From a virus (Duplodnaviria; Caudoviricetes), in IMG/VR virus record IMGVR_UViG_3300021226_000025, positions 1 to 56,046 of that record: 56,046 nucleotides of DNA. The stretch is one strand, 5' to 3'. Position numbers and translations under genes: made by a program. The notes beneath the pieces are model-generated. The model searched no databases, was not told where the DNA came from, and saw nothing but the letters and a program-made list of their open reading frames with translations. Below, in pieces: positions 17,091 to 50,848 of the stretch (position 1 is the stretch's first letter; the number at the start of each line of letters is the position of its first letter).

Positions 17091-19961
17091 ATGGACACGC
17101 TGAGTTTTTTGCAGCGAGTACTACCAAGTGAAGGACTGTATTGCATTGCTAGTTTTGAGGACGGAAATCCAAAACCACGGCACGGTTACTTTGACTCAGT
17201 AGAGAAACTCGCAAAGGTTTCACTAGCCTTAAATAGTAGGGGGCAGAACACATACTACGCAATCTCCACCTTCTTGACGAAGGAAGGTAGACGCAAGCAG
17301 GACAACGTGCAACTGACCAAGGTGTTGGCGATTGATGTTGACTGTGGCATTGGGAAGAACGGAAAGCCCAAACCTTTTGCCGATGCAAGCGAAGGTGCTC
17401 GGGCACTGGTTAAGTTTGTGCAAGCAGTTGGACTTCCGATGCCGATGATTGTTTCGTCAGGCAATGGTCTGCATACATATTGGGTGATGACTGATGCCGT
17501 GACTCCGGCCCAGTGGAAGCCACTGGCGAACGCACTTAAAGCGGCGTGTATCCAACATGGGTTCACACCGGACATTGGCGTAACAGGTGACAACGCACGA
17601 ATACTGCGACCCATTGGATGCACCAACCCAAAGGGCGGCAAGATAGCCACCTTGTTGCGGGATGCTCCTGATGTGGAGTACGACACACTTTGGCAAGTCC
17701 TGTCACCGTTTGCCTCAGGCTCATCCTATGAGCCACCCGAACAACAGACACGTACCAGTACGTTGTTGGATGCTATGGCGGTTAAGCACGAGTACGCACC
17801 TGCTAATGCGGACAAGATTGCGGAGAAGTGCCAGCAGATTAAATGGGGGACTGAGAACCAAGAAGATGTTTCAGAACCCTTTTGGTGGAAGTTGATGGGC
17901 GTAGCCGCCTACTGCAAAGACCCGATTGAAACGGCTATCAAGTGGAGTGAGAAGTACAGTAAGTTCAACCAACAGGAAGTTGTTAGCAAGGTTGAGAACT
18001 GGAAGGACGGCGCTACTGGCGCAACATGGTGCGAGAAGTTTTCGCTTGAGCGGCCTGACGGCTGTAAGGGTTGTAAGTTTAAGGACAAGATTAAAAGCCC
18101 GATTGCTTTGGGCACACAGTTTGCCGAGGTCAAATCAATGGCGGCATTGGCTGACCCGATTGCGGCACAAGTTCCATTGCCACGTGGGTTCAAGAGAACC
18201 ACGGATGGTATGAAGTATGTGATTGACGACACAGATGTTGATGTGTGTAAGTTCGACCTGTACCCGGTGGGCTATGGAAAAGATGAAGGACTTGGCTACG
18301 AGGTTGTTCGCTACATGTGGAATAGACCGCACGTTGGGTGGACAGAACTTGTACTGCGTCAAGCCTACCTGACTGATGGAAGTCGGGAGTTTTCCACTGC
18401 GATTGCTGACCAAGGCATCGTGCTTTTTAACAAGAACCAAACGAACTTTTTCCAAATGCTACTACGCTCATACATGGAGGAATTGAAGCAGAAACGAGGA
18501 TTGACTAATCTGTATTCGTCGATGGGTTGGAAGGACGACTACACACAATTTGTTCTTGGTAACACCCTGCTTCGCCGTGACTCCAACGGCTCTGTCACAG
18601 AAGAATCTGTGAACCTTGCATCATCCATCAACAAGGTGGGTGAGGATATGTACGCCTGTAAAGGCAACCTGCAAGAGTGGGTGAACTTCACCAGTATCTT
18701 GCAGAAGGGTGACCTCAAACTGCACAAGTTCCTGATTGGGTTTGCCTTTGCTACCCCACTACTCAAGGTCAGTGGACTCAAAGGGTTAACCCTATCTTTG
18801 TATGGCAAGACAGGCGGCGGGAAAACCCTAGGTCAGTTGATGATGCAGTCAGTGTGGGGCAACCCTGACTTACTCCACTTCGGTGGCAAGTTCACACAGA
18901 ACGGATTGTTCAGCCGCTTGGCAATGCACGGCAATCTGCCCATGACGGTAGACGAAATCACCATGCTCGACAAAGAGGAAGCGGGTGACATGCTCTACTG
19001 GATTTCACAGGGCAAGGACAAGGCTCGTTTGAACCGCAACGCCGAGGAGAAAGCAGTCAAGGAGTGGCAGACCACGATGACTGTATCGACCAACGAATCG
19101 TTCAGCAGTATGTTGTACGCAGGTGGTCACGCTACGGACGCGCAGTTGGCACGACTGATTGAATTCAACGTGCAACCTAACCCACTGTTCAATGACACCA
19201 GTAATGTGGGGCGCAAGATTCATGCGTTCCTCATGAACAACTACGGTGTGGCAGGGCGTGAGTTCATGAAACATGTCATGGGCTTGGGCGTAGATGTCAT
19301 ACGCAATATGTTGGAGCACAGTATCAGTGAGTTCCCCAAGAAGTACGGTGTTCAGTTCACAGGTGACGAACGCTTTTGGGAACTGGGAGTTATCCTGTCA
19401 GACCTCGGCAACCAACTTGCTACCGAATACGGACTCATCAAGTACGAGTACCGTGACGCAACTGTTTGGGCACTGCAAGAACTGGGCGCAATGAAAACCA
19501 CAGTGGCGGCAAACAAGGCTACATCATTCATGATACTGGGCGAGTTCGTCAAAGCACACATGGATTCCACTGTGACTGTCATGCACACCCCCGGACAGAA
19601 GCCTATGCGGGATAACAACCGACCATATGTTAATGATGTGATTGTCCGTTACGACCTGCATCGCAAGACGTATGACGGCATCTTTGAAAGCGGCTCTGTT
19701 CTGATTGAGCGAACCAAGTTGCGCCGTTGGCTATCCCAACGAGGTCATGACTACAAAGCGTTCTTGCGTGAGTTCGAGCAGGAAGGAATCATCGTGACGC
19801 CCAAGTCTGAGAAGGCGTACTTGGGTAAAGATATTGGCTTGAAGATTCCGCAGTGCTACGTTGTCGGCATCAACCTCAACCACCCTGAACTACAAGGGGT
19901 CTTGGATGATGCACAACAACCTATCGCTAACCTGATGGTTGGTCAGTTGCAAGCCGTTTAG
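17091..19961 (+). CDS. Primase-helicase (AEP/RepB-like primase + Zn finger + DUF927-like + P-loop helicase)
   Basis: IDVD, SSGNGLHTYW, ILRP; C...CKGC; GKTGGGKT, TVDE; start ATG 17091 after GGGGA. Confidence 0.88.
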   Translation: MDTLSFLQRVLPSEGLYCIASFEDGNPKPRHGYFDSVEKLAKVSLALNSRGQNTYYAISTFLTKEGRRKQDNVQLTKVLAIDVDCGIGKNGKPKPFADASEGARALVKFVQAVGLPMPMIVSSGNGLHTYWVMTDAVTPAQWKPLANALKAACIQHGFTPDIGVTGDNARILRPIGCTNPKGGKIATLLRDAPDVEYDTLWQVLSPFASGSSYEPPEQQTRTSTLLDAMAVKHEYAPANADKIAEKCQQIKWGTENQEDVSEPFWWKLMGVAAYCKDPIETAIKWSEKYSKFNQQEVVSKVENWKDGATGATWCEKFSLERPDGCKGCKFKDKIKSPIALGTQFAEVKSMAALADPIAAQVPLPRGFKRTTDGMKYVIDDTDVDVCKFDLYPVGYGKDEGLGYEVVRYMWNRPHVGWTELVLRQAYLTDGSREFSTAIADQGIVLFNKNQTNFFQMLLRSYMEELKQKRGLTNLYSSMGWKDDYTQFVLGNTLLRRDSNGSVTEESVNLASSINKVGEDMYACKGNLQEWVNFTSILQKGDLKLHKFLIGFAFATPLLKVSGLKGLTLSLYGKTGGGKTLGQLMMQSVWGNPDLLHFGGKFTQNGLFSRLAMHGNLPMTVDEITMLDKEEAGDMLYWISQGKDKARLNRNAEEKAVKEWQTTMTVSTNESFSSMLYAGGHATDAQLARLIEFNVQPNPLFNDTSNVGRKIHAFLMNNYGVAGREFMKHVMGLGVDVIRNMLEHSISEFPKKYGVQFTGDERFWELGVILSDLGNQLATEYGLIKYEYRDATVWALQELGAMKTTVAANKATSFMILGEFVKAHMDSTVTVMHTPGQKPMRDNNRPYVNDVIVRYDLHRKTYDGIFESGSVLIERTKLRRWLSQRGHDYKAFLREFEQEGIIVTPKSEKAYLGKDIGLKIPQCYVVGINLNHPELQGVLDDAQQPIANLMVGQLQAV

Positions 19962-22900
19962 TCGGGGATGCCCGCAAGGGTTTCCTCGTCTACACCATAG
20001 AGGCGAAGCATGTCTTTCGCTTCCATGCGACCGCTCTTAGCCGAGGACTTGAGTGCACGGATAGCCAATGGTTTGCTTGCTTCTCGGTAGGCTTGTGACA
20101 AGCCACGGTCAAAGTTGCGCATCTCAAGGCGAGTGCCTTTGGTGTCCTCGTTCCAGTCAGACACAAACTTCTTAACCTGAGCCAAGCGTTCAGTGTCGTT
20201 CTCCAGTCTTGCCGCCACACCTTCACGGGTGAGTTCGGTTTTAATCATGGACATGTAGGCTTGTTCCTGTCTGTCTGCTGACATCCAGTCCATCTGCATT
20301 TGCGCACGACTTGGGTAGAAGCCCATTGCCTTACCAAGCAACTCCCATGTGGAAACATTCTTGGCGACCACATAGCCTTTGTTGTCTAGGATTGCGCCAG
20401 TGTCTGCGTACTTCCACGCATCACCCACGTTCTTAATGGCTCGGATAGGGCTATCTCTCAACAACTCTATGGGTGACTGACGACCAGTCGCCACAGCAGG
20501 CAGCGTACTTGCACCCCAGTTGAGCGCACCCACGATGAATGAGGTAGGTGCACCTGCTAAGTTCTCAACTTCACGCAGGATTTCATCCTTAGTCGCTGAG
20601 GGTTTGAGGATGCCAGTTCCGGGGATGATGTCGCCAAGACCCAAGCGGTTAGAGAACGACCAACCAGTTACATGGTCAAGCAAACCACGCATCATGATTG
20701 GGTTAATTTCAGCGGCAAGTTCCGCACCAAATACATCGGCAGTCAAACGAGCAAACTCTTTCTCGACTGAACCAATCTTTAAGCCAAGGCGCTGGCAGAG
20801 TGCGTCAAGAATGTCCAACAAGTCGTCAGCACCCGGTAGTCCACGTACCCCAGACAGGAGTAGCAACGAACCTATCATGATGATTCTGCCTTCGTAGTTC
20901 ATATTTTTGAGCAGTTGAATCATCATGATTGGGTACTGCTTGTACATGTAGATGAAGGCTTGCACACCACCACGGAAGAACGCAGGGCGGTTGTACTGAG
21001 CGTAGTCACCTTGCGTAGCGTCCAGTGCTTTGGTGGACATCTCACGTGCTTTTACGTCCGCAATGGATGGGTCACCATGCGTCGCCATCTGCCGCTCATA
21101 CTCACCACGATATGCTGCTAGGAGTGTGACACGGCGGTTGACCTGCTCGGAGTACGAGAAGGGAAACATCCACGTTTGAATAAATTTTTGGACAGTTGGG
21201 TTGCCAGTAATCTTGCGACCCTTACTGGTTCCGGTCATAGCGTTAAACGATGCGGCATCCAAGCGTTGCTGTTCGGTCATGTCACGTAGGAAACGCAACT
21301 CACTACCAGTCAGTCCATCCTTGGTGTACTTCGCACCATTCTTTTCCTCTACCTCAAACTCTTTCAGACGAGCATCAAGCCATGCTAAGTCAGCATACTT
21401 GGGGTTTGCCGTGTTCATCAAGAACTGGGTCAGCAACTTACCTGCCTTACCTGCGCCCAAGCCAACACCGAAGCCAGTCTTAGGGTTGAACGAGGAGAGG
21501 TACGCCCATGAGTTTGTCGGCAGTGAAAGCACTTGCGTGATGCCAGTTGCAATCGAGCCACCTAGTTGGAATATAGCCGCCCATGTACGAGTAGCCACAC
21601 TCCACTGATTGTTAGACCAAATGTCATCAGCGTGAATAATGTCTCCAGTTGAGTCCATCCATGCAAGCATGGACTTGGCACGCTCGTTGTAGTACTGACC
21701 ACGTTCGATACGGCGACCGTCTTTGGTGTACTCAACTACGTTGTCTTGGAAGAACTTCTCTTGGAAGTATTCACGAGCCGCAACTTCTTTGGCCTCCCCC
21801 GTGGCAGATTCCCACTTGGCTTTCAATGTTGCAAGACGTTCAGGGTTGTCACTCCAGTTGTCAGTATCGTCAAGCACTTCGTCAAAGCGGTGACGGTATT
21901 CTTTGTTGGCTGCAACATAGGCTTGCTGCTCCAAGAACGCAGACGAACTACGGACAATATCTTTATCCCAGCCGGGTACACCTGCACGCTGCAAGTTGGA
22001 GCGAGCACGGGAGTTCTGACCTGAGACTTTCTGCACAAGAACTTGGCGCACCTCAGGCGACAACTGGATACCCAAGCGACTGAGCGAGTACATGACCTCA
22101 TCGTAGTGGAGTACGTCCACCAAGTCAGGAGTCTGACGGGTAACTGATGCAACGGCTTCGAGGCGAACCTTTTGCAGATTGCCTTTCTCGTCACGCATGT
22201 CGTACTCACCATTGAGCATGGCGTTCAGTTCTTCTTGGTACTGCTCAGCATCTTTCTGTGTGCCTGTCTTGTAGAAAGCCAGTGAGTCTTGTTGACCATC
22301 AGCCAACTTAACTGGGTATCTAGTGCCGTCCTTATCGGTTGTGTATGCCTGCACACGGACTTGCCACTCGCCTTCACGAGTAAGCGGTACGTAAGCACCT
22401 GCGATTGAACGCTTGGCGTACAACTGGTCGTCATTGATAGAAGCCGCAAACATTGAGCGTTCTTCGATGCGATGCTCCAGTGCCCAGATAGAACTGTTTT
22501 TGATTGGGTCTACCTCAGGGTCAATCTGCGTCTGCAACTTAGACCGCATACTCTTAACAAGCGTCTCTACCTGCGTGGGGGTATACCCCGGCATCATACC
22601 TTTGAGGTCGTTCAATGCTAGGTCGGAGTAAAACGCACGGGCGAACTTCATACGCAACCACTCAAGGGCATCCTTATTGGAAGTATCCAACAACTTGAGG
22701 CGGTTGCCTTGGAACTCTGCACCTTTCATGCGCATCTCATCAAACATGCCAGTGGCATCCTCAATAAATCTACGCTCAACATCCGTAAGTGGTGTAGACT
22801 TCTTAAATGCACCCCGCACCCCTGCGGAGATGGCCCTCTTTTGCTCGTAGACTGCGCCAATGTACTTGCTTCGCAGAACGTCAATATGGCTCATTGCCAT

Positions 22901-25900
22901 AGTTTCTACGAACTCGTTATACATCTTCCACTCAACGCTATCTTCCGTGAGGTCTTTGAACCACTCGGGGGTAGGAGCCATGTTGGGCACTTCATACATT
23001 GGCTCTTTCATACGCTTGGTGTACAAGCGTTTGGTCTGCTCAATGTCTTGACTGAATTTCTTCTCGTCTCGCTTACGCTCAAGCGCATATTCAGCCTTCG
23101 TATCCTCATCAGTTTCAGCGGCAATCTTTTTATCGACACGAGCAAAGGCTGCGTCACGATATTTTTCAATCTTGGCAATGACTGCATCTCGCTCGGTCGC
23201 AAGTTCTTGACGGTATTCATCAGTCATCGGTACTTCTTTTGTACCCTGTTGAACTTGGAAGCCTTTCTTAAAATCCTCCACAGACAAACGGCCTGCATCG
23301 ACCAGTGCTCGGAACGCATCAGGGTTTACATCCAAGATACCGGAGTCTGGGTCAAAAAACACAGGGTTGTCCATCTTGTCCAACTGTGAGTCGGAGATGG
23401 AGTTCATCTTAAAGAGCGAACCGTACGCAAGTAACTCACCCGCACGAACTTGTTTCTCCATGTCTGCGCCTTCACCTAGGCCCAGAAACTTGGCTTTGTG
23501 AGCAGTCGCCGTACCATCCGCATACTTCTGCTTGTACTGGTTCTGCTTTGCACCTTTGAGTTGGAGCAGTTCAAAAATCTTGGAGAAACCTTTGCTCTTG
23601 CGGGCTAGGTTATCCATCGTCTGAATACCATCAAGGACAGACTGCGCTACGTTTGTCACGTTAGACATTACGCCTTTGCCTTGCTTAACGGCTTCGGCTG
23701 CACGATTCTTAGCGTCAATGATGTCGCTTACAGCACGAGACAGACCACCATGAATAGCAGCATTACGGTTGAGGTTACCCATTGCGTAAGTCAGCGCACC
23801 CTGTGGAGCCATTGCAGCAAAGCGCAACACTTCCACATTGGACTGGTCGTTCAACAACGACTGGTCAATTTCTTTGAACAAGCCTGACAGGTTGACTTCG
23901 CTGCGGCCTGTGCCTTGACGCACGTACTTGCGTGATAGTCCAATGAGATAGCGAGCCGCATCGTCGTTGAACTTCAAGCCTATCTTGTTGAGTTGGTCTT
24001 TGACCCAGTTCCAAAAACGCAAGATGGTGTTGGTATCCACGGCAGCGGCACGGTCAGCCAGTACTTCTTCAACCGCCTCAAGGAACGGGATACCCCGCCC
24101 TGCTGCGTACACCTCTGCTGCCTGCGTCAGTTGTGCATCTGAATCAGCAACAAGTTTGAGGATGGCGTTCAGTGCACGGTCGTTGAATAGACCACGAAAG
24201 CCAACGTGACCAAGGGTCTCGTGAGCAATAATGAAGCGGGCTTGTTGTTCTGACTCGATGAAGTCTGCAAACAGAACTACGTTGTTACCCCATGCCATAC
24301 CTGCGGCATTTACGTGCTCGATGTCACCAGCCTTGCGTGCCTTGGCAGCAGCGGCAAACAACGAGGGGTTAGCCTTTTGCATGTCAGCCAGATTGGAGAA
24401 CACGTGGACAGTAGGCTTACGGGCAAACTTAGACACCACACGTGCAGCAAACAGACGCAGTGGGCCAGCCTTCATAGGTTCAGTTGGGCGACCGTCTACA
24501 CGGTAGAACTCTAGGTCACCACGGTCACTACGTGCATTGTCGTACAGTGGGTCATACTGGAGGTCATCCAGTGTGGTCTGTGTTTCTTCATCCTCAAGGT
24601 CACGCAATGCCTGTCTAGCATCCTTGTGCTTCTTGACAAATTCTTCTTTAGACATCTTGCCTTCTTCTTTGGTTGCCAACACAAAGTTACTTGTACCGGG
24701 AACTTGCACGATGATAGGTTCACCGTCGGAAGTAAAGAAGTCTTTAATGCGTCCACGACCGCTGACTTCAAAGTTGTCGTTGTCTACATCCACGTAGCGG
24801 ATAAGCGCAGCACGGCGTAACTGGGCTTTGTCCAGATAGCCATTGCGGTTGTTGATGAGGTCAGCCATGCGAATCTCACCAAGGTTCTCCGTAGGAGTGT
24901 TGACTGGCTTATTGACCACGGCTTCTTGTTTAGTCTTGGCTCCGGGCTGACGAACCAACGCTTGAACATTGGCATCATTCAACAACCCGTGGTCAGCCAA
25001 CAAGGAGTACAAGCGAGACTTAGGCCCGATGCTCTCCTCGTTGAGTGCCACTTCCCTTAGTGCGGCTATGAAGTCCCGCTGGGGAATACCTCCGTCTGCC
25101 AAGAACCTTTCGGATGCAGTACGGAGATATGCTTTGACGTTTGAAGTCAATGCGTAGGCACTGACGATTTCAAACAGAGCCTCTGCGTAAGCAGCAGGAC
25201 TCTTTGTAGTTTCGATGGTCTCGATAGCCATATCGAGTTCTTGGTTGGCAAACTTAGTTTCTTCGCTTGCCTCTTGCACGCCTTTCTTTGTGGTGCTCTC
25301 CACCACAGCAGGCTGCTGAGTTGTACCAAGAAGTTGTCCGACCATTGCCGCCAGACCACTTGGGCCTTTCTGCAACTTAGCGGCTTTGGCAGGAGTAGCC
25401 TTAGCCTTTGCCTCGGACTTTTTTTCTGCACCCTTGGCAAGTTTCTTTTTGCCACCCTTCGGAGGAGTCGGTTCAGTCGGCTTAACTGGAGCCGCAGCCG
25501 TGGTGACTGGTGCGTTAGTTACGGCTTCTTGGGTTTGCTTCTTCCCGCGCTGGAGAGACTTGCCGCCACCGCCTGTTTGAGTGCCGCCGCCTTTGACTTG
25601 GGTCGTGGGCTGGTTCCCAGTTTGCCCCCCGCCTTGTACTCGTCCATTATCTTCTTGACGTTGGCTGACACTACCTTGTTGCTGCTTCCCTTTTTGAGTG
25701 GCATTTGCTTTTCCTTTCTTGAGCACTGCGGCTTTCGCCTTAGTTGCGGTTACTGCCGTAACAGGCGCACCTGTCGGCGGAATCTGTACAGCACCCTGCT
25801 GCACAGTCGGAGTAGGCACGGCTTGGCGTGTACCCGCACTCTTGAGTGCTGCCACGGTAGGCTGACCTTGTTGCGTGAACAATGACAACTGACCTGCACG

Positions 25901-28093
25901 TTGGAACTGTCCGGGGGTAGGAGTACCTTGCACAACTGGAGCGGGTGCAGGCAGTTGCGTGCCGACACCACGGCGCAAACCTTCAGCACGTGAAGGCACT
26001 GGCGCTTGTCTGCGGTTGAACAAGGGCATCTGCTGCGGCTGCCGTACAGGCAACGGACGCATAGGAAGTTGTTGCTGTGTGACTGGCTGTTGCTGCTGGG
26101 CCGCAAAGTCCAACTGTCGTTGATTCTGAGCCTGCACCGCCAGACGTTGCATGTCGGCTTCACGCTGTGCTTGTTCCTGAGCCTGACGCTGTGCGTAGGC
26201 TTCTTGGATTTGGCGTTGCTGAATAGCCGCCTGCAACTGGTCAGCCATTGCAGGATTGAACGCAGGTTGCTGGTTCGTAAACCCAACACCACTTGGAGCA
26301 GGAGGTGCGAACTGCAATGCCATTTGCCGTGGGTCAACAGGGACTTGAGGCGAAGGCAATGCCAAGCGGTCAGACGGAGGAGCAGTTACGGCTTGTTGTT
26401 CGTACTGCTGGGTCTGAGGATTCCATACCATGCGGGGAGCAAGTTCGCCCGTTTGCTGGCTACGTTGCTGTAACTCACCAATGGTTGCACCGCCAAGGTC
26501 AAGCACACCTTGTGCACCACCGAACTGACCGGGGGCTACCTGCCCTGTAAAGATACGGTCAGTAGGTACGGAAGGACGGACTGCGCCATCAGCGCCAGCC
26601 ACAAAATCAGGGCGTGCACCCATACCACCGACTTGGGTTGGGCCACCTACGGGAGTACCCGGTGGAGGTGGAATGATTGTCAACGCAGTGGATGGAGCAG
26701 GAGGCTCAGCAGTCTGGCTTGGATTCAGCAGGTTGGTAGGCTCTTTGGTAATCGGGCCACGGCGTAAGTTAGCCGCTGCACCAAGCACACCGCCAGTACC
26801 AAAACCTGCTGCAAATGATTCGTAAAGACGTTTCTGTATTTCAGGCGCAGAAAAGTCCTGCCCTGTGTTGGCAATCAGCAAAGCCTCTTGCCCAAGTTCA
26901 GTCGTACCTTCAGCAGTACCACCAGCAACAAAGCCTTTACCTGCACGCTTGAGTAGTTCTGCACCACGCAGACCTTGTGTGCCTAGGAAGGTTTCGCCTT
27001 GAATATCACGGAGGGCTTTGCCGCCCTGACGAGCCAGACCGCCTGTGCCAAACAAGCGAGAGGCAAGCAGGAACTCAGGCAAAGATTCAAGTGCTGCATA
27101 CGGAACAGCGGAAGCCAATGCGGAAAGACGATTGTCTTGCCCTTGGTCACGTTGCTCACCATAGATGTCAGCCACACCCGTGGCGTAGTTCTGCGCCGTA
27201 GTGAAGATGGTTGCACCAGCAATACCAGCAGCCTCACGCAGTATCTTGGTTTCAGCAGCGTTAAGTACTTCACCTGCGGCTTTCTTTTTGATAGCCGCAA
27301 GAACAGATTGTTTGAAGGTTTCTTTACCAGCCAGACCAGCGAGGGCTGCACCACCACCTGCAAGTGGGCCACCAGCGGCTGTACCTGCAAAGAAGCCTGC
27401 GGCGGCAGTAGCAACAGACTCCAGAATATTTGGGCCTTGTTGGGCTACGGTTGCGACCAGCCAGTCAATAGCAGTGTTAGCGTCCTTGACATCGGAGAAC
27501 TCACGAATGTAAGGCGAGGACTTCTGTAAATCACCACGAATGGTGTCAGTGCCTACCTGAGCATCGACGATGCGCTGACCAGTTTCTTCTGCACCTAAGA
27601 ACTGCAAGCCTCGACCCGCAAGCATTTGCATATTGTCCAGACCAATGCCAAAGTTCTTCTTGGCAAGTTTGCCTAGGCCGGGGTTCTTGATAGTGCTGAG
27701 GTATTGTCCGTAGGAGTTAGGGTCAAGTTGAATCCAGTCGCCGCCCTGTGGCATACCGACACCGGGCATACTCAAGCGGGCTTCGCTTTGCAACGCCAGT
27801 GCATCATCATCAGCAGCAAATTGTGCGCCGTTTACAAACAGAGACTTGGTAGACGGGCTGTATGCCACAACCGGAGGACGTTTAATCTCCGGCATGGTGA
27901 ACTGGCTCTGCTTGACCAACTCCTGCCCAAGAACTGCCGTGTCCACTTGGGAAGGCATCATGTTCTCTGTTCCGCTACGTGGCATCTGCGAGAAACCAGC
28001 ATAGGGATTGAGCACAGTGTTTAAGTCTGCGCCCATGCTACCTAGGTTGACATCTGCAAATGACAGTCCAGCGGGAGTTGCAGGATTCGCCAT
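19958..28093 (-). CDS. Giant (2711 aa) polyvalent internal virion/ejection protein
   Basis: HETLGH metallopeptidase-like motif (24206-24223), YVPLTREG PLxRFG-like motif (~22370), hydrophobic Gly/Ala N-region; last gene of virion arm. Confidence 0.85.
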   Translation of the reverse strand: MANPATPAGLSFADVNLGSMGADLNTVLNPYAGFSQMPRSGTENMMPSQVDTAVLGQELVKQSQFTMPEIKRPPVVAYSPSTKSLFVNGAQFAADDDALALQSEARLSMPGVGMPQGGDWIQLDPNSYGQYLSTIKNPGLGKLAKKNFGIGLDNMQMLAGRGLQFLGAEETGQRIVDAQVGTDTIRGDLQKSSPYIREFSDVKDANTAIDWLVATVAQQGPNILESVATAAAGFFAGTAAGGPLAGGGAALAGLAGKETFKQSVLAAIKKKAAGEVLNAAETKILREAAGIAGATIFTTAQNYATGVADIYGEQRDQGQDNRLSALASAVPYAALESLPEFLLASRLFGTGGLARQGGKALRDIQGETFLGTQGLRGAELLKRAGKGFVAGGTAEGTTELGQEALLIANTGQDFSAPEIQKRLYESFAAGFGTGGVLGAAANLRRGPITKEPTNLLNPSQTAEPPAPSTALTIIPPPPGTPVGGPTQVGGMGARPDFVAGADGAVRPSVPTDRIFTGQVAPGQFGGAQGVLDLGGATIGELQQRSQQTGELAPRMVWNPQTQQYEQQAVTAPPSDRLALPSPQVPVDPRQMALQFAPPAPSGVGFTNQQPAFNPAMADQLQAAIQQRQIQEAYAQRQAQEQAQREADMQRLAVQAQNQRQLDFAAQQQQPVTQQQLPMRPLPVRQPQQMPLFNRRQAPVPSRAEGLRRGVGTQLPAPAPVVQGTPTPGQFQRAGQLSLFTQQGQPTVAALKSAGTRQAVPTPTVQQGAVQIPPTGAPVTAVTATKAKAAVLKKGKANATQKGKQQQGSVSQRQEDNGRVQGGGQTGNQPTTQVKGGGTQTGGGGKSLQRGKKQTQEAVTNAPVTTAAAPVKPTEPTPPKGGKKKLAKGAEKKSEAKAKATPAKAAKLQKGPSGLAAMVGQLLGTTQQPAVVESTTKKGVQEASEETKFANQELDMAIETIETTKSPAAYAEALFEIVSAYALTSNVKAYLRTASERFLADGGIPQRDFIAALREVALNEESIGPKSRLYSLLADHGLLNDANVQALVRQPGAKTKQEAVVNKPVNTPTENLGEIRMADLINNRNGYLDKAQLRRAALIRYVDVDNDNFEVSGRGRIKDFFTSDGEPIIVQVPGTSNFVLATKEEGKMSKEEFVKKHKDARQALRDLEDEETQTTLDDLQYDPLYDNARSDRGDLEFYRVDGRPTEPMKAGPLRLFAARVVSKFARKPTVHVFSNLADMQKANPSLFAAAAKARKAGDIEHVNAAGMAWGNNVVLFADFIESEQQARFIIAHETLGHVGFRGLFNDRALNAILKLVADSDAQLTQAAEVYAAGRGIPFLEAVEEVLADRAAAVDTNTILRFWNWVKDQLNKIGLKFNDDAARYLIGLSRKYVRQGTGRSEVNLSGLFKEIDQSLLNDQSNVEVLRFAAMAPQGALTYAMGNLNRNAAIHGGLSRAVSDIIDAKNRAAEAVKQGKGVMSNVTNVAQSVLDGIQTMDNLARKSKGFSKIFELLQLKGAKQNQYKQKYADGTATAHKAKFLGLGEGADMEKQVRAGELLAYGSLFKMNSISDSQLDKMDNPVFFDPDSGILDVNPDAFRALVDAGRLSVEDFKKGFQVQQGTKEVPMTDEYRQELATERDAVIAKIEKYRDAAFARVDKKIAAETDEDTKAEYALERKRDEKKFSQDIEQTKRLYTKRMKEPMYEVPNMAPTPEWFKDLTEDSVEWKMYNEFVETMAMSHIDVLRSKYIGAVYEQKRAISAGVRGAFKKSTPLTDVERRFIEDATGMFDEMRMKGAEFQGNRLKLLDTSNKDALEWLRMKFARAFYSDLALNDLKGMMPGYTPTQVETLVKSMRSKLQTQIDPEVDPIKNSSIWALEHRIEERSMFAASINDDQLYAKRSIAGAYVPLTREGEWQVRVQAYTTDKDGTRYPVKLADGQQDSLAFYKTGTQKDAEQYQEELNAMLNGEYDMRDEKGNLQKVRLEAVASVTRQTPDLVDVLHYDEVMYSLSRLGIQLSPEVRQVLVQKVSGQNSRARSNLQRAGVPGWDKDIVRSSSAFLEQQAYVAANKEYRHRFDEVLDDTDNWSDNPERLATLKAKWESATGEAKEVAAREYFQEKFFQDNVVEYTKDGRRIERGQYYNERAKSMLAWMDSTGDIIHADDIWSNNQWSVATRTWAAIFQLGGSIATGITQVLSLPTNSWAYLSSFNPKTGFGVGLGAGKAGKLLTQFLMNTANPKYADLAWLDARLKEFEVEEKNGAKYTKDGLTGSELRFLRDMTEQQRLDAASFNAMTGTSKGRKITGNPTVQKFIQTWMFPFSYSEQVNRRVTLLAAYRGEYERQMATHGDPSIADVKAREMSTKALDATQGDYAQYNRPAFFRGGVQAFIYMYKQYPIMMIQLLKNMNYEGRIIMIGSLLLLSGVRGLPGADDLLDILDALCQRLGLKIGSVEKEFARLTADVFGAELAAEINPIMMRGLLDHVTGWSFSNRLGLGDIIPGTGILKPSATKDEILREVENLAGAPTSFIVGALNWGASTLPAVATGRQSPIELLRDSPIRAIKNVGDAWKYADTGAILDNKGYVVAKNVSTWELLGKAMGFYPSRAQMQMDWMSADRQEQAYMSMIKTELTREGVAARLENDTERLAQVKKFVSDWNEDTKGTRLEMRNFDRGLSQAYREASKPLAIRALKSSAKSGRMEAKDMLRLYGVDEETLAGIPD
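25519..25704 (-). CDS. Nested 61-aa basic protein in an alternative frame
   Basis: AAGGA RBS 7 nt before ATG; MPLKKGSS...KQAVAASLSSAG resembles a widespread small phage protein family. Confidence 0.7.
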   Translation of the reverse strand: MPLKKGSSNKVVSANVKKIMDEYKAGGKLGTSPRPKSKAAALKQAVAASLSSAGRSKPKKP

Positions 28094-32861: not shown

Positions 32862-33346
32862 TTCATAGCCTCCGTTAATTCAAGTCGCATGTGTGTATAC
32901 ACAGGCTTAAAACCGTATTGAGAAATAACCCGCTCCATTGCTGGGGACACCCATCCCTCAATGACTCGGACACTATTCATATACGCCCAACCACAAAGCA
33001 TCTTCCAATACTTTGCATGTAGAGCGTCTAAATCACTACCACCAAGCGCAACGATGTTCATTGCAGGCAGTTTGGGGTAGTGAATAATTTCTAACACCAG
33101 TGCTAACTTCACACTCTTAGTGATTGTTTTATCACATTTGACAACAAATATATACATCTTTCCTTGTAGGGCAGCGTTGTATATATCGTCAATCGTCATC
33201 TCACCGTGCATCGCACGTTTTACACATCGCTCTAACAGAGGTTTTGTAGCAGGCCAATACGTGTCGAAATGCTCCTTCGTAGAAAGAAGAAGTGGTTCAA
33301 ACTCATCGAGAGGTATCGGGTCAAACCCTGCTGGTAGAGTACTCAT
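32858..33346 (-). CDS. Degenerate GNAT-like protein (T7 gp13-like position)
   Basis: MNIVALGG...IEGW...YGFKP pattern; lies between tail and ejection genes. Confidence 0.55.
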   Translation of the reverse strand: MSTLPAGFDPIPLDEFEPLLLSTKEHFDTYWPATKPLLERCVKRAMHGEMTIDDIYNAALQGKMYIFVVKCDKTITKSVKLALVLEIIHYPKLPAMNIVALGGSDLDALHAKYWKMLCGWAYMNSVRVIEGWVSPAMERVISQYGFKPVYTHMRLELTEAMK

Positions 33347-34317
33347 GCGTCTTGGTATTTCTTGAGAAGTGCGTCGAAGAAGTCTTTACCTTTAGCCTGT
33401 ACCACTTTGGCAGGGATTACATACTCACCTGCGGATACACGAATAGGAATACTATCGCTAGTACCAGTGCCGGGGCCACTAACTTTACCGCCCTTTGCAG
33501 CATGGTCACCCATGTGTACGTAACCACCAGAAGCCATGCTCATCATAGGCTGGTCGCCCATCGGAGCACCACCCATCGGAGCACCACCTGCACCTTGTTG
33601 AGTGCTACCTTGCACCGCACGAATAGCAAGCAGCAGCACAAAGATTAGACCTTGGTCGTATTCAGGGGACAAATCTTCTTCAGTCGCCATACCTTGTTGA
33701 ATAGCAAACTGGCGAATGTAGGTATACATCTCAGGGTTTTGAAGTGCAGTCATAGCAAGTTGACCTGCCATGTTGAGTTCCTCAGGGGTAATCTCTCCGG
33801 CTTGGAAGCCAGCCATGATGGCTTGTTGAATACGTGCGACTTCTTGGGGTTGCTTGCGCATGAACTCTTGGAGTTGCATCTCGATTGCTTGAGGGCTTAG
33901 ACGCTCTTGAGGTTTACCAACACCAGAAGGGCGCATAGGCATACCACCAGCACCGACCATACCGCCTTCGGCGTAAGTAGGTTGGAGACGGAAGTCAAGA
34001 ACAGGTGCACTAGGGTTTGAAGCCACTGTGCCAGTTTGAATTGGAGCCGCAATGTTTTGCTCGTTGACAGTGACGTTAGGTGTACCTGAACCCAATAGAC
34101 CTTGCAACGATGCAGGAAGGTCAAGCGACGTAGTAGGTGCGGGAAGTTCCGCACCCATACCCGGCGCAGTCGGGGTAGGTGTCATTTGCGGCGCAGGAAC
34201 ACCAGTTAAGTTGGTAGCCAAAGCGCCTTGCACCGTAGGCTGTCCGGCCTGTGGGACGGACGACGGAGCCTTGGGAGCCATATTTAGAATCTGAAGAACT
34301 GGGTTATTGCCTGCCAT
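33343..34317 (-). CDS. Virion-associated protein with AxGGxV repeats
   Basis: YAEGGMV, MASGGYV, AKGGKVSGPGTGTSDSIP...GEYVIP. Confidence 0.75.
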   Translation of the reverse strand: MAGNNPVLQILNMAPKAPSSVPQAGQPTVQGALATNLTGVPAPQMTPTPTAPGMGAELPAPTTSLDLPASLQGLLGSGTPNVTVNEQNIAAPIQTGTVASNPSAPVLDFRLQPTYAEGGMVGAGGMPMRPSGVGKPQERLSPQAIEMQLQEFMRKQPQEVARIQQAIMAGFQAGEITPEELNMAGQLAMTALQNPEMYTYIRQFAIQQGMATEEDLSPEYDQGLIFVLLLAIRAVQGSTQQGAGGAPMGGAPMGDQPMMSMASGGYVHMGDHAAKGGKVSGPGTGTSDSIPIRVSAGEYVIPAKVVQAKGKDFFDALLKKYQDA

Positions 34318-34320
34318 GAT

Positions 34321-34668
34321 TTATCCTTTCAATTGGGAAATGAGCGTGTTAACGGTCGCCCGCAAATTCGCAACGTCATTGGCAAGCAACTGAACATCAC
34401 TGATTAACTTGCCGTAATCGTCTAAATCTGGTACTCGTTGCCCGCTAATAGTATACCCGTTACCTGTTGCAGATACACGAGTAAATGTTGCTGTTGGTGC
34501 GGATTTGACACCAATGTTTCCTTTGGTGACCGCTGCGCTTTGTAGGTCTGCTTCGCCACGGATACCGCAAAGCAACTCGACATCTTCTTTCAGTGCATTG
34601 AGCAGTTGGGACTGCCAGTCTGTAACTGTACCTGAAGGTATAGAAGGGATTGCTGTGAACCGTGCCAT
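34321..34668 (-). CDS. Small tail protein (needle/plug-like)
   Basis: Follows nozzle gene; C-terminal heptad coiled coil. Confidence 0.55.
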   Translation of the reverse strand: MARFTAIPSIPSGTVTDWQSQLLNALKEDVELLCGIRGEADLQSAAVTKGNIGVKSAPTATFTRVSATGNGYTISGQRVPDLDDYGKLISDVQLLANDVANLRATVNTLISQLKG

Positions 34669-37289
34669 TATGCAGCCCTCAATCCAAATGGGGTTTCCCC
34701 TATGTGCACCGCACGAACTCGTGCAGAACCAGATACCGCTACCTCAAACGTGTCAGAGCGGTAACCTGTGGGAAGCCTAAAGATGTCGTCTGAAGATACT
34801 GTACCTTGGAATATCAGTGTCTTATCTGCCCAGATGCGGAATGTGACTGGTAATACCCCTGCCACAGTTTTAAATGAGCGAGTAATATTGTCACCGTTGA
34901 TAACAGTGGAATTCAGTGTGCCTGAGTTCTCAATACGCACGCCCAAACTTGTTACTCGGTCATATGGGCCGTTCATGTCGCCAAGACCCTTGAAGCACAA
35001 AACTGTACCGGATGTATCAGCAGTTGTACCAGTTGCTGTACCAACACTAGGGTATGTAAACGTCGTGGAATTTACAACTGTGATGACTGCATCTGCGGCG
35101 TTGAACGTAGACGACAGACCACCAGTAAATCCAGAAATAGTAATCTTGCTGCCAGTAATGAACCCATGTGCGCTGGCGGTCACAATCGTAGCGACGTTGG
35201 CTGCACGAGCATACGACGCTGTTTGAATCGGCGTAGCGTAGTCATTCCACACTTGAAGGTTGTACGCGGGTACTCCAGCGTTGTACGCTGCAATAGCCTC
35301 GGCTTCGGCGTCAGGTGTAGCGTAGTCTGCAATCACACGGGCTGCACCAATGTTGAGGTAGTCCTTGGTCACAATGACCTTAGACTTCCACTCCATTGCT
35401 GCAAGAGGTTGCGTATTTTTATCCCACTGATAGAGATTACCTAGATTATCCCCAATATAGTAGAAATTGTTTGTTTTTGGGTCGTACCATGCGGCAGACC
35501 AAATATAGTTGACCGATACAAAGTACCCACCAATACGTTCATCACGCTCAAACGTAAATGAGTTGGTGGAGTGTGAGGCGAAGTATTTACCGTTGTAGAA
35601 CTTAGCCACCAATGTGTTAGGGGACAAGGTTGCATCCCATGTATCCCAGTCGTGCACATACTTAGTAATCAAGTCCATACCGAGCGACGGGTTGTACACA
35701 GCCAAACCACCATAGGTAGCGTACACAACACCATAACCCATGTTCACAATCGAACGCTTTGAGACACAGGGGTAGAGCGTATCAATACGAGCAAACGCCA
35801 TTGTGGCAGGGTTGTTACCTGACACTTGGTATGGATACTTCTCTGTAAGTACAAGCACATATCCGCCAACAGACGCAATCCCCACAATAGGTGATTCAAA
35901 CGTCAGCGCATACTTGTTCGGAAATGCGTGGAATACATTCGGCTCAGAGAAGTAAAGTTGGTTGCCCTCAAACCCAGCAAGAATGTTGTTCTGTACCGCA
36001 GTCAAACCTTTAAGGTTTGCAGGTGGCGGGTCATAATCATCTGTACTGAGAATGTCGGTCAGTAATGTTGAGTCGAAGTCATCTGTAAACGAATACACAC
36101 CACCGTCGCCCCAGTAACGTGCAGTGCTGGTAGGTAGTTCAGAAACGTCGTGGTACAACGTGCCAGCAATCTCCACTTTATTGGTTACATCAGATGCAGT
36201 CTGTGCGTACTCAAACGTATAGTCGTCAATGACATCAGTAACAATACCACCAGTAATATTGAACGATGAGTCTAAGCACCCACTGATTTTAAAACGGTCG
36301 TCAATAGCAAGATTGTGATGGTTAGACAGTGTTACCCGTGACACGTTGGACGTACGTTGCACACGAGCAAGTGAAGTTGGAAACCACAAGGTGCGCAGCA
36401 AGTAATACGTTGTGCCAGACGTAGACGACAGCGTACGGTAGAGACGCACACCACGTACAAAGTTATCTCCAGTTGGTTTAGAGGTTGGAATATTGGTGAC
36501 TGTAACCGTCTGGCCTTCTTTGATATACAAGTTGTCAGATGGGTCAGAAGCAATAGATTCCTCAAGCCACGGTGTGTACCATGTGTACACATACGAGCGA
36601 GGGAATGTCGTACCTGCCAGTGCAACAGTACCAGAGGTATCTGCCGTAGTGCTTACCGTTTCGCCGGGACAGAAGTACGAAAACGAAGTCGAGTTAATAA
36701 CCGTGACTTCAGCGTTGGTCGCATTAAACGTAGCCACTGTGGATGTACCAGCAGGCATACCACTGATAGTCACCTTGTTACCAGTACGTAAACCGTGCGC
36801 CGCACTGGTTACGATGGTTGCGGTATTACCCGCATCACGCGCTTTAGACGCCGTAGTTTTGTTTGAGAACGACGCTGCGGACGTTGTGACCTTTGTCTCA
36901 GGTAGTGGTAATCCAAGTTCGTAGAAGTTATTTGGATACGGCTCACCAGTCGCAGTAGCCAACTGGTAGTTTGACACCTTAGGTACACCGTCGCCAGTGT
37001 AGTAAAAGCGTTGCTCCATATCCGTGGAGTCAGACGCAGTAACAATGTCAACGTCAGTAGTCCATGTCAGGAACTTGAGTTCATCTGTGTCAGGGTCGCG
37101 CAATCCGTACAGAGTCTTGATGTCACCCACACGTCCTACGTTGTCTACAAGGTAGGGTAAACGATAGGGAATCAAATCACCGGAGTACAACTTGACGTTG
37201 TACGCCAACTGCCCCGCAGAATCTGGGAGCAGTTCAGGTGAAATCTTGGGGGCTTCACCTAGGAATTTGACAAGTTTAACGGCAGCCAT
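34668..37289 (-). CDS. Tail nozzle/stabilisation protein (P22 gp10 / T7 gp12-like) with inserted beta-barrel repeats
   Basis: F.GEAPK...LLP N-terminus, LYFSEP...FP, CVSKRS, WKSK; three T..AHG...G.K.TISG-type repeats. Confidence 0.8.
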   Translation of the reverse strand: MAAVKLVKFLGEAPKISPELLPDSAGQLAYNVKLYSGDLIPYRLPYLVDNVGRVGDIKTLYGLRDPDTDELKFLTWTTDVDIVTASDSTDMEQRFYYTGDGVPKVSNYQLATATGEPYPNNFYELGLPLPETKVTTSAASFSNKTTASKARDAGNTATIVTSAAHGLRTGNKVTISGMPAGTSTVATFNATNAEVTVINSTSFSYFCPGETVSTTADTSGTVALAGTTFPRSYVYTWYTPWLEESIASDPSDNLYIKEGQTVTVTNIPTSKPTGDNFVRGVRLYRTLSSTSGTTYYLLRTLWFPTSLARVQRTSNVSRVTLSNHHNLAIDDRFKISGCLDSSFNITGGIVTDVIDDYTFEYAQTASDVTNKVEIAGTLYHDVSELPTSTARYWGDGGVYSFTDDFDSTLLTDILSTDDYDPPPANLKGLTAVQNNILAGFEGNQLYFSEPNVFHAFPNKYALTFESPIVGIASVGGYVLVLTEKYPYQVSGNNPATMAFARIDTLYPCVSKRSIVNMGYGVVYATYGGLAVYNPSLGMDLITKYVHDWDTWDATLSPNTLVAKFYNGKYFASHSTNSFTFERDERIGGYFVSVNYIWSAAWYDPKTNNFYYIGDNLGNLYQWDKNTQPLAAMEWKSKVIVTKDYLNIGAARVIADYATPDAEAEAIAAYNAGVPAYNLQVWNDYATPIQTASYARAANVATIVTASAHGFITGSKITISGFTGGLSSTFNAADAVITVVNSTTFTYPSVGTATGTTADTSGTVLCFKGLGDMNGPYDRVTSLGVRIENSGTLNSTVINGDNITRSFKTVAGVLPVTFRIWADKTLIFQGTVSSDDIFRLPTGYRSDTFEVAVSGSARVRAVHIGETPFGLRAA

Positions 37290-50629: not shown

Positions 50630-50848
50630 TCATTTGGACTTTGCCGCTAGTTCAGGGGACTCTTTGGCGAACTTATACAGTTCACCCAACACTTGACACC
50701 GCCCCTGCGAAAGTGCCATGTTGTTTATCGCGTGAGGTAGTTGCTCTAACTCATGTGTCCGCCATGTCTGTATCCAGTCCAAAAGTTCTGGATACTGGCG
50801 AATACATGCGCCAAGAGCGTGAACTACTTTGAGGTCGGGCTTTATCAT
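50630..50848 (-). CDS. Small portal-adjacent protein
   Basis: ATGA overlap with portal; QGR motif. Confidence 0.75.
   Translation of the reverse strand: MIKPDLKVVHALGACIRQYPELLDWIQTWRTHELEQLPHAINNMALSQGRCQVLGELYKFAKESPELAAKSK

What the first reader, a model, noticed from the sequence alone, without database searches (positions are those of the whole stretch)
25519..25704. Fully nested same-strand gene inside the 2711-aa ORF
Seen: an alternative-frame ORF with its own AAGGA RBS encodes MPLKKGSSNKVVSANVKKIMDEYKAG...KQAVAASLSSAGRSKPKKP, while the host frame here is low-complexity linker (QQQGSVSQRQEDNGRVQGGGQ). From memory it resembles a common free-standing small basic phage protein (MPLKKG...KQAVAIALS). 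Inference: an entire gene was captured into a tolerant linker and still functions; standard gene callers would miss it.
Basis: partly seen in the sequence, partly recalled or inferred. Interest (0 to 1): 0.7.

Follow-up and report, generated by a model that had tools for sequence, protein, structure and literature searches.

The report
Old small gene nested in giant gene
A 61-residue, very basic phage protein gene sits entirely inside another reading frame of a 2711-residue virion protein gene, is kept intact by selection, and belongs to a huge family that normally stands alone.

Summary
ORF 25519-25704 (-) lies wholly in the +1 frame of ORF 19958-28093 (-), with AAGGA 7 nt before its ATG. It is not a chance ORF. 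A profile built only from 64 free-standing homologues scores it 77.7 bits, and the family has 7444 representatives at E<=0.001.

In 6 of 7 relatives of the giant gene that cover the site, the nested ORF, its Shine-Dalgarno site and its start are kept, while the flanking linker diverges. Substitutions fall on nested third positions (8/8/31). Host third positions vary in 11% of codons here against 89% elsewhere.

The host frame is also kept open by selection. Nested copies use T at third positions in 2% of codons, against 21% in free copies. Only 0.35% of synonymous recodings leave the host frame open.

Nesting recurs in several divergent lineages, always in +1. One sister phage carries an unrelated small gene at the same slot, and that second family is itself mostly nested.

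Expression and function are untested. This is a new variant of embedded overlapping genes: the nested gene is the old one.

The parts
25519..25704 (-). Nested gene: 61 codons plus TAA stop, in the +1 frame of the host ORF. It encodes a basic protein (13 K, 2 R, 1 D, 1 E; pI 10.75) predicted to form two helices.
   Evidence: Searches give the ORF. Searches give the homology. Searches give the selection. One search gives the AF2 model (helices 9-25 and 38-52, mean pLDDT 80.5). One search gives the composition.
25712..25716 (-). Shine-Dalgarno-like AAGGA, 7 nt upstream of the nested ATG. The conserved DNA island in relatives begins here.
   Evidence: One search gives the sequence. One search shows the island starting at this motif. 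Searches show a GGAG/AGGA-type motif upstream in 14 of 15 other nested loci. One search shows no significant RNA structure around it (z -0.72).
19958..28093 (-). Host gene: a 2711-aa giant virion-module protein and the last gene of the minus-strand structural block. It is read through the nested gene in frame 0.
   Evidence: Searches give the ORF. One search gives the neighbours: internal virion protein, portal and large terminase. One search gives NF032893, PLxRFG domain, 180.7 bits against a cutoff of 100. One search gives phrog_11358 on the C-terminal part.
25394..26713 (-). Low-complexity Q/A/P/G/T-rich linker of the host protein (about residues 461-900) that houses the nested gene.
   Evidence: One search gives the sequence and the composition. 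One search shows the flanks of the island diverged or unalignable. One search shows normal host codon periodicity everywhere in the linker except over the nested gene.
20069..21337 (-). PLxRFG ('tail-700') domain of the host protein, residues 2253-2675.

Best explanation
A genuine, selected protein-coding gene for a 61-aa basic two-helix protein is embedded in the +1 frame of the disordered linker of a giant PLxRFG-type virion protein gene. The protein belongs to a very large family of small phage proteins (phrog_2423-like, distantly DUF6496-like).

Both frames are decoded from the same late mRNA:
- Ribosomes that start at 28093 read through and make the 2711-aa protein.
- Ribosomes that load at the internal AAGGA-N7-ATG (25704) make the small protein.

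The nested gene is the older partner. The host frame over it is a tolerant G/Q/T/K-rich spacer, and its only visible constraints are to stay open and hydrophilic. The nested gene's synonymous sites have been tuned accordingly, with almost no T at third positions.

The gene behaves as an exchangeable cassette between giant genes.

Function is inferred only, at about 30% confidence: a head- or ejection-associated small basic protein made together with virion proteins. Free-standing copies usually sit directly 3' of the portal gene or next to giant DarB-like genes.
For: HOMOLOGY
- phrog_2423 matches at E 1.9e-8.
- 18 homologues at E<=0.01, including 13 free-standing proteins of 46-60 aa.
- An HMM built from 64 unique free-standing members only scores the peptide 77.7 bits.
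- 7444 library representatives match at E<=0.001 and 2561 at E<=1e-10.

CONSERVATION OF GENE SIGNALS
- The nested ORF with ATG and SD, in the same +1 frame, is present in L085-L089 and L092, that is in 6 of the 7 host relatives that cover the site, and in L001.
- The DNA island starts at the SD and ends at the stop codon, between diverged flanks.

SELECTION IN THE NESTED FRAME
- Variable columns by nested codon position are 8/8/31 in 56 codons of 8 sequences.
- By host codon position, inside the nested gene, they are 20/6/6 of 56. Outside it they are 1431/1158/2124 of 2391.
- Of 482 sliding windows over the giant gene, 15 have host position-3 variability at or below position 1. Thirteen of these cover host residues 779-896, and the other two are saturated.
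- NG86 median omega is 0.24 for the nested frame (27 pairs) and 1.97 for the host frame (21 pairs).
- In an independent lineage (L019/L174/L175), host position 3 varies in 4 of 58 codons inside the nested gene, against 58 of 98 and 166 of 298 in the flanks.

SELECTION ON THE HOST FRAME
- T at nested third positions averages 2.0% in 16 nested copies and 21.3% in 165 free copies (Mann-Whitney p 9e-11).
- In the window, T3 is 1.6% in the nested gene and 27.8% in the host gene.
- Only 0.345% of 20,000 synonymous recodings keep the host frame open.

RECURRENCE
- 15 of 183 distinct family loci are nested in a same-strand frame of at least 300 aa, and all 15 are in +1.
- The giant hosts of the L004 and L019 lineages are not detectably homologous to this one outside the nested segment.
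- The family tree needs 6 state changes, of which 4 are forced by starred branches.

CASSETTE BEHAVIOUR
- The L090 host is 81/89 and 107/117 identical to L001 in the flanks but only 16/50 over the slot. There it carries a different +1 ORF that starts at the same SD.

CONTEXT
- Free copies lie directly after portal genes: DSL-LC04; 24 loci whose upstream ORFs align; phrog_1216.
- One free copy lies after a DarB-like giant gene (L072).
Against: - There is no direct evidence of translation. RNA-library contigs of relatives cover the ORF, but the tool warns that DNA can be present in such libraries, and coverage says nothing about which frame is read.
- Part of the island's very high similarity between divergent hosts probably reflects recent exchange rather than long purifying selection. 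WIN and L092 are 97% identical in nucleotides here while their flanks are 28-61% identical in protein. Two alleles are distributed against the host phylogeny.
- dN/dS in overlapping frames is biased.
- In the L019 lineage the 17 substitutions show no clear periodicity (6/4/7).
- One nested locus (L183) has no SD-like motif.
- Function has no support beyond gene neighbourhood. Foldseek against the PDB found nothing at E<=0.001. The Pfam DUF6496 match is below the gathering score.
Confidence: 0.85

Rival explanations
1. It is a chance open frame in a low-complexity, stop-poor linker, with an accidental AAGGA.
For: The same +1 frame in this linker also holds longer ORFs with no sign of function: 195 aa at 25750..26337 and 102 aa at 25147..25455. 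Host codon periodicity over them is normal. ORF length alone therefore means nothing here.
Against: - It scores 77.7 bits against a profile of free-standing proteins only.
- Substitutions follow the nested frame.
- Start, SD and stop are conserved across relatives.
- The same family is nested in unrelated giant genes.
Confidence: 0.01
2. It is a recently captured relic, no longer expressed. The island looks conserved only because it spread recently by recombination and because the host frame constrains it.
For: - Synonymous divergence in the island is low: nested dS is 0.07-0.87, and 0.11 for WIN-L092, although the hosts are far apart.
- The alleles are mosaic relative to host phylogeny.
- No expression data exist.
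Against: - The host-frame protein changes freely over the island: host-frame identity is 53-100% against 82-100% for the nested frame.
- Host third positions, which are free elsewhere, are frozen here.
- No copy among the 16 nested ones is broken, across several deep lineages.
- The nested state has persisted long enough for synonymous sites to lose T.
Confidence: 0.05
3. The segment is decoded by a programmed +1 ribosomal frameshift from the host frame. This would give a truncated N-terminal product of about 800 aa with the small-protein domain as its C-terminus, rather than a product of independent initiation.
For: The frames are on the same strand and offset by +1, and the nested frame ends soon after. 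Such a product cannot be excluded by sequence alone.
Against: - The nested ORF begins with ATG or GTG exactly where free-standing homologues begin (MPLKKG...).
- A GGAG/AGGA motif lies 6-9 nt upstream in 14 of 15 other nested loci and in the window.
- Sequence upstream of the SD is not conserved, so no conserved shift site is seen.
- I did not run a formal search for slippery sites.
Confidence: 0.05
4. The 2711-aa ORF is not one protein. Two genes flank a free-standing small gene, and the host frame merely happens to be open across it.
For: Free-standing copies lie next to giant genes in some phages (L060 before one, L072 after one). Some hosts of nested copies are shorter (850-1431 aa).
Against: - No stop ends the upstream part, so ribosomes must read through.
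- The frame is open in all 16 nested cases.
- Only 0.345% of synonymous recodings would leave it open.
- T3 depletion holds even in genomes of 34-38% G+C.
Confidence: 0.03

Closest known systems
Lambda-type spanin genes Rz/Rz1 (recalled from the literature on Rz/Rz1 equivalents, not from a call)
   Same: A small gene lies wholly embedded in the +1 frame of a larger same-strand gene and has its own ribosome-binding site. Across phages the same pair is found embedded, overlapped or separate, as here, where the small gene is nested in some phages and free-standing in most.
   Different: - Rz1 always travels with Rz, and the two products form one complex. Here the nested gene usually stands alone, often next to the portal gene, and is nested in unrelated giant genes.
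- The host segment here is a disordered spacer, not a functional domain.
- An unrelated small gene can replace it at the same slot.
Overprinted (de novo) overlapping genes of small viruses, such as phiX174 E in D and B in A (recalled); reviews appeared in the search listing (PMC8227390, PMC6195259; abstracts only seen)
   Same: The same nucleotides code twice on the same strand, and the asymmetric constraint is visible as a shifted codon periodicity.
   Different: In overprinting the embedded frame is the young, lineage-restricted and often disordered one. Here the embedded gene is the old, widespread and folded one (7444 representatives), and the enclosing frame over it is the low-complexity newcomer.
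phrog_2423 / Pfam DUF6496 small proteins of unknown function
   Same: They share the size, the basic charge and the two-helix pattern. phrog_2423 matches at E 1.9e-8. The DUF6496 profile aligns to residues 10-57, and 10 of 46 family members hit it at E<=0.1.
   Different: The phrog match covers only residues 1-22. The DUF6496 score of 14.4 bits is below the gathering score of 24. Neither family has a known function, and no paper in the library mentions DUF6496.
PLxRFG-domain / DarB-like giant virion proteins of podoviruses (the host gene)
   Same: The host matches NF032893 at 180.7 bits. Its C-terminal part resembles proteins of Pseudomonas and Pseudoalteromonas phages annotated as structural, PLxRFG or DarB-like.
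   Different: None of the 25 listed rows (40 records matched) names a nested gene among the features under the match, but those matches lie in the C-terminal part, not at the slot. I did not inspect the linkers of those cultured phages.

Membership tests
MPLKKGSS...KQAVAIA small phage protein family (phrog_2423-like) | Significant profile match over the whole length | tested here: met
   An HMM built from 64 unique free-standing members scores it 77.7 bits, E 4.3e-20 at Z=1e6. phrog_2423 matches at E 1.9e-8 but only over residues 1-22.
MPLKKGSS...KQAVAIA small phage protein family (phrog_2423-like) | Invariant residues of the N-terminal motif and second helix (P2 L3 K4 G6 S8 N15 A45 A47 A53), with the protein starting at the motif | tested here: met
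   Alignments A1 (19 sequences) and A2 (46 sequences). P0001 carries all the invariant residues.
Pfam DUF6496 (PF20106) | Score at or above the gathering threshold (24 bits) | tested here: not met
   14.4 bits, E 0.05. 10 of 46 family members match at E<=0.1, the best at 9.5e-4. It is treated as a possible distant relative, not as a member.
Same-strand embedded overlapping gene (Rz1-in-Rz type) | Lies wholly inside another CDS in a different frame of the same strand | tested here: met
   The offset of 2389 nt puts it in the +1 frame.
Same-strand embedded overlapping gene (Rz1-in-Rz type) | Own start codon and ribosome-binding site, conserved in relatives | tested here: met
   An SD-like motif is present in the window and in 14 of 15 other nested loci.
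Same-strand embedded overlapping gene (Rz1-in-Rz type) | Purifying selection on the embedded frame, and selection keeping the enclosing frame open | tested here: met
   for the embedded frame. for the enclosing frame.
Same-strand embedded overlapping gene (Rz1-in-Rz type) | Both protein products detected | not testable with these tools
   Only RNA-library contigs of relatives cover the site. No proteomic or ribosome-profiling data are available.
De novo overprinted gene | The embedded frame is younger and more narrowly distributed than the enclosing gene | tested here: not met
   The embedded family has 7444 representatives and is mostly free-standing. The enclosing frame over it is not conserved between lineages.
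PLxRFG domain-containing protein (NF032893), for the host gene | Score above the curated cutoff (100 bits) | tested here: met
   180.7 bits over residues 2253-2675.

The most novel reading that the evidence does not exclude
Disordered linkers of giant ejected virion proteins are a general docking site for mobile small genes that ride in the +1 frame. Old, folded, widely distributed small phage genes from at least two unrelated families are carried inside a younger spacer-coding frame. They are pre-adapted by loss of T at third positions, are swapped between giant genes as cassettes, and are invisible to standard annotation. This is the reverse of classical overprinting, and it would mean that a whole layer of phage small proteins is systematically missed.
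Probability: 0.55. Interest if true: 0.85.

Novelty: new variant of a known kind. Interest (0 to 1): 0.75.

Why it matters
Embedded genes in dsDNA phages are known mainly from a few textbook cases and are discarded by gene callers. This case has an unusually clean computational signature:
- homology to thousands of free-standing proteins;
- a shifted codon periodicity;
- synonymous sites tuned to keep the other frame open.

It shows an old gene living inside a newer reading frame, which is the opposite of overprinting. The pattern recurs: 15 of 183 loci for this family and 47 of 65 for a second family are nested, all in +1 and mostly in giant virion protein genes. The two families swap at one slot.

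If this is general, it has three consequences:
- Phage annotation pipelines miss a class of conserved small proteins.
- Linkers of giant virion proteins become places to look for them.
- The system offers a natural model for how two frames share synonymous sites.

The family itself, several thousand clusters of unknown function, becomes a target for functional work.

Tried and rejected
SEARCHES THAT LED NOWHERE
- DNA search of 24500-27000 against 50,697 cultured phage records found no match.
- tblastn of the peptide there gave 22 records. All were weak partial matches (36-52% of the query, E 4e-3 to 0.4) to free-standing ORFs, so no cultured phage with a nested copy was found.
- tblastn of the second-family peptide there found no match at 1e-3. 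The low-complexity filter may have masked it.
- NCBIfam has no family for the peptide.

STRUCTURE
- The AF2 model is a two-helix hairpin. Foldseek against the PDB gave 17 matches at E<=10 and none at E<=0.001, so there is no functional lead.
- The PDB sequence search gave only a weak, repeat-summed resemblance of the second helix to TALE repeats (E 0.014; no single repeat significant). I treat this as a curiosity.
- Atlas search with a stored homologue gave only 'hypothetical' clusters and one cluster with 11% DUF6496.

OTHER CHECKS
- The promoter scan of 25300-26100 found no sigma-70-like site. The one terminator-like hit is on the other strand and within shuffle expectation.
- RNA folding around the start gave z -0.72, so no structure.
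- I tested whether the giant hosts of different nested lineages are homologous. Pairwise phmmer found only L004~L019 (E 4e-62) and WIN~L001. WIN~L004 matches only over the nested segment. A common origin of the nested state in one ancestral giant gene is therefore not supported, but it is not excluded for very distant homology.
- I looked for split forms of the host gene among the 8 relatives found with its N-terminal 460 aa. All that reach the site are fused, so the 'fusion of two flanking genes' origin has no direct support.
- Laying RNA-library contigs: three of the four runs laid have a long contig over part or all of the ORF, and X20 has none there. This is presence in RNA libraries only, not proof of transcription.
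- Literature: 'DUF6496' gave 0 papers and 'PLxRFG' gave 5 papers, none on nested genes (listing only). Three combined searches on overlapping, embedded or nested phage genes (listings and abstract starts only) turned up nothing that describes this arrangement. Supplementary files were not consulted.

LIMITS
Nested fractions are therefore counts in those samples, not prevalences.
- My regular-expression recognition of family ORFs missed some loci: 72 of the first 80 were recognised.
- L088 (host ORF cut by the contig end) and L090 (lacks the cassette) were left out of the 7-sequence codon count. L091 ends before the site.
Full report
WHAT IS THERE. The window is a complete 56,046-bp virus record. 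It has a podovirus-like structural block on the minus strand: large terminase 53254-54642, portal 50845-52905, and internal virion protein 34668-37289. The block ends in a 2711-aa ORF, 19958-28093. That ORF carries a PLxRFG ('tail-700') domain near its C-terminus (NF032893, 180.7 bits against a cutoff of 100). It also has a long Q/A/P/G/T-rich linker at about residues 461-900. The product is very basic (13 K, 2 R, 1 D, 1 E; pI 10.75). AlphaFold2 on a 46-sequence alignment predicts two helices, 9-25 and 38-52 (mean pLDDT 80.5).

IT IS A MEMBER OF A VERY LARGE FAMILY THAT NORMALLY STANDS ALONE. PHROGs gives phrog_2423 at E 1.9e-8 over residues 1-22. Pfam gives only a sub-threshold DUF6496 match (14.4 bits against 24). 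The 5.8-billion-protein search returned 18 hits at E<=0.01 among 47 candidates. Five are close relatives (78-95% identity) and 13 are free-standing proteins of 46-60 aa that share the N-terminal motif and the second helix but lack a 16-residue insert. Of the 72 where my pattern recognised the ORF, 68 are free-standing and 4 are nested. An HMM built from the 64 unique free-standing sequences alone scores the window's peptide 77.7 bits (E 4.3e-20 at Z=1e6). A profile search of 1.84 billion cluster representatives found 7444 at E<=0.001 and 2561 at E<=1e-10. Nearly all of the 150 listed are 51-208 aa, with the match at or near the N-terminus. Free-standing copies most often lie directly 3' of a portal gene. 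In phage DSL-LC04 the copy overlaps the annotated portal gene by 11 nt. In 24 loci the upstream ORFs align with each other along their length, and two of them were checked against portal phrog_1216 (E 1.3e-35 and 6.6e-54). One copy follows a DarB-like giant gene (L072), and one precedes an ORF of more than 1985 aa (L060).

THE NESTED COPY IS UNDER SELECTION. Eight IMG/VR loci encode relatives of the giant protein's N-terminal 460 aa, at 52-91% identity. L091 ends before the site. Of the seven that cover it, six (L085-L089, L092) hold the nested ORF in the same +1 frame at host residue 790-858, with ATG and an AAGGA/AAGGAG motif. So does L001. In a DNA alignment, the conserved island begins at the SD and ends at the stop codon. 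The flanking linker is riddled with substitutions and indels, and in L087 it is unalignable upstream.

Over 56 gap-free codons of 8 sequences, variable columns by nested codon position are 8, 8 and 31. By host codon position (7 sequences; L088 and L090 left out, see limits) they are 20/6/6 of 56 codons inside the nested gene, against 1431/1158/2124 of 2391 outside. Host third positions therefore vary in 89% of codons elsewhere and in 11% here. They are the nested second positions.

Of 482 sliding windows along the giant gene, 15 have host position-3 variability at or below position 1. Thirteen of these tile residues 779-896, and the other two (1559-1605) are simply saturated. This also serves as a negative control for the two longer +1 ORFs in the linker (25750-26337 and 25147-25455), which show ordinary host periodicity.

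Pairwise protein identity over the same nucleotides is 82-100% in the nested frame and 53-100% in the host frame. NG86 median omega is 0.24 (27 pairs) against 1.97 (21 pairs). These figures are biased in overlapping frames, but their direction is unambiguous. An independent lineage (L019, L174, L175) repeats the main effect. Host position 3 varies in 4 of 58 codons inside the nested gene, against 58 of 98 and 166 of 298 in the flanks. With only 17 substitutions, the nested periodicity there is flat (6/4/7).

THE HOST FRAME IS ALSO KEPT. If the giant ORF were open across the small gene by luck, the nested gene's synonymous sites would look like those of its free relatives. They do not.
- T at third positions averages 2.0% in 16 nested copies and 21.3% in 165 free copies (Mann-Whitney p 9e-11). 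It is 0-6% even in hosts with 34-38% G+C.
- In the window it is 1 of 61 codons, against 27.8% for the host gene's own third positions.
- Only 0.345% of 20,000 synonymous recodings of the peptide, drawn from the genome's codon usage, leave the host frame open.

T at a nested third position is T at a host first position. That is where all stop codons and the codons for F, L, S, Y, C and W begin. The pattern therefore fits a host frame that must stay open and hydrophilic. These copies are related within lineages, so the p-values overstate independence. Even so, at least seven lineages show the depletion.

RECURRENCE AND MOBILITY. Pooling five scans, 183 distinct family loci include 15 that lie wholly inside a same-strand frame of at least 300 aa. 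All 15 are in +1, and 14 have a GGAG/AGGA-type motif upstream. Hosts range from 850 to 2789 aa, and the nested gene sits at different relative positions in them.

The giant hosts of L004 and L019 are homologous to each other (E 4e-62) and hit other PHROGs (14770, 616, 10691; DarB-like 10089). They are not detectably related to the window's host, except over the nested segment itself. A FastTree of 169 distinct peptides needs 6 changes between the free and nested states (4 forced by starred branches; shuffled mean 15.5; 0 of 500 shuffles as low). The alignment is short and many forks are unresolved.

Within the window's own group the island is mosaic. The window shares one allele of a short patch with L092 and L088, while its close host relatives L085, L086 and L089 share the other allele with L001 and L087. 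The window and L092 are 97% identical in nucleotides here, although their flanking protein identity is 28-61%.

Most telling is L090. Its giant gene is 81/89 and 107/117 identical to L001 just upstream and downstream, and 661/700 further on, but only 16/50 over the slot. It lacks the family altogether. At the same SD it has a GTG-started 53-codon +1 ORF of a different family (weak phrog_1375, E 0.005). That second family has at least 453 IMG/VR loci. Among 65 distinct copies in the best 80, 47 are nested, all in +1, and 18 are free. They show the same T3 depletion (3.6% against 25.7%, p 4e-9).

HOW IT MOST LIKELY WORKS.
- Shown: two frames of one stretch are both under selection; the nested gene keeps its own start signals; it is older and far more widespread than the frame around it.
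- Inferred: both products come from the late structural mRNA, the small one by independent initiation at the internal SD. No promoter-like site or stable structure is seen nearby.
- Inferred, weakly: the protein acts with head or ejection proteins. This rests on the gene's usual place after the portal gene and on its repeated association with giant ejected-type proteins. Its charge would suit nucleic-acid binding, and a faint TALE-repeat resemblance is not evidence.
- Origin: cassette replacement in L090, the mosaic alleles and the tree favour capture and exchange into tolerant linkers over a single ancient fusion. The direction of each transition is not shown.

COMPARISON WITH WHAT IS KNOWN. 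The arrangement works like the Rz/Rz1 spanin pair (recalled): a +1 embedded gene that has embedded and separate architectures in different phages. It differs in three ways. The partners are not an obligate pair, the enclosing segment is a spacer, and unrelated genes alternate at the slot. It is the inverse of overprinting, where the embedded frame is the novelty. Searches of the paper library found no description of it (listings and abstract starts only). The exact peptide, and those of L092 and L090, are absent from the 15-billion-protein collection, which is consistent with gene callers skipping them. Five near relatives were called on other contigs.

LIMITS. There is no proteomic or ribosome-profiling evidence. 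RNA-library contigs of relatives cover the ORF (X15 record 4 spans 25427-25823; X18 record 17 spans 25537-25696 with 3 differences in 160), but such libraries may hold DNA.

VERDICT. This is a real, selected nested gene (confidence 0.85). Its function is unknown, probably virion-associated. It is a new variant of embedded overlapping genes and one instance of what looks like a wider, unannotated phenomenon.

Noticed in passing
L090:12351-12512 (+), same contig as L093; compare window 25519-25704: A sister phage has a different small gene at the same slot, the same SD and the same +1 frame. It has 53 codons and a GTG start, with an N-terminus like MPFKSQAQ followed by a PEMAKE-type helix. This second family has at least 453 IMG/VR loci. 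47 of 65 distinct copies in the best 80 are nested in large same-strand ORFs, all in +1, with T3 at 3.6% against 25.7% in free copies.
   Followed up: partly
window 25640-25660 region of the nested gene; L001, L085-L089, L092: Two alleles of a short patch of the nested protein (residues 17-21) are distributed against the host-gene phylogeny. The window, L092 and L088 share one, and L085, L086, L089, L087 and L001 share the other. This suggests gene conversion or cassette exchange between divergent giant genes.
   Followed up: partly
L002:5851-6105, L008:3386-3655, L035:2206-2430, L062:3532-3732, L078:6001-6195: Many free-standing, portal-adjacent copies carry one of two conserved C-terminal tails that the nested copies lack. 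One ends in ...KKDGN.PVKIY and the other in ...FSPIARPQRF.G.F. These may be docking peptides.
   Followed up: no
window 25750-26337 (-) and 25147-25455 (-): Two longer ORFs (195 and 102 aa) lie in alternative frames of the same linker, the first in the same +1 frame as the nested gene. Host codon periodicity over them is normal, so they look like compositional artefacts. They are a useful internal negative control.
   Followed up: yes
window 24206-24226 (-), host residue 1290: The motif AHETLGH sits in a conserved-looking middle part of the giant protein and is reminiscent of a metal-binding or peptidase-like motif. No Pfam family matched the giant protein.
   Followed up: no
P0001 residues 43-56: The second helix and following loop (KQAVA.(A/S)L..AG(K/R)S) weakly resemble the helix-loop of TALE DNA-binding repeats in a PDB profile search (E 0.014 summed over repeats, with no single repeat significant).
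   Followed up: no
window 33343-34317 (-): The C-terminal 50 residues of this 324-aa protein match tape-measure and endolysin PHROGs (for example phrog_3547 at E 3.3e-11). It is probably a cell-wall-hydrolase module in an ejected virion protein.
   Followed up: no
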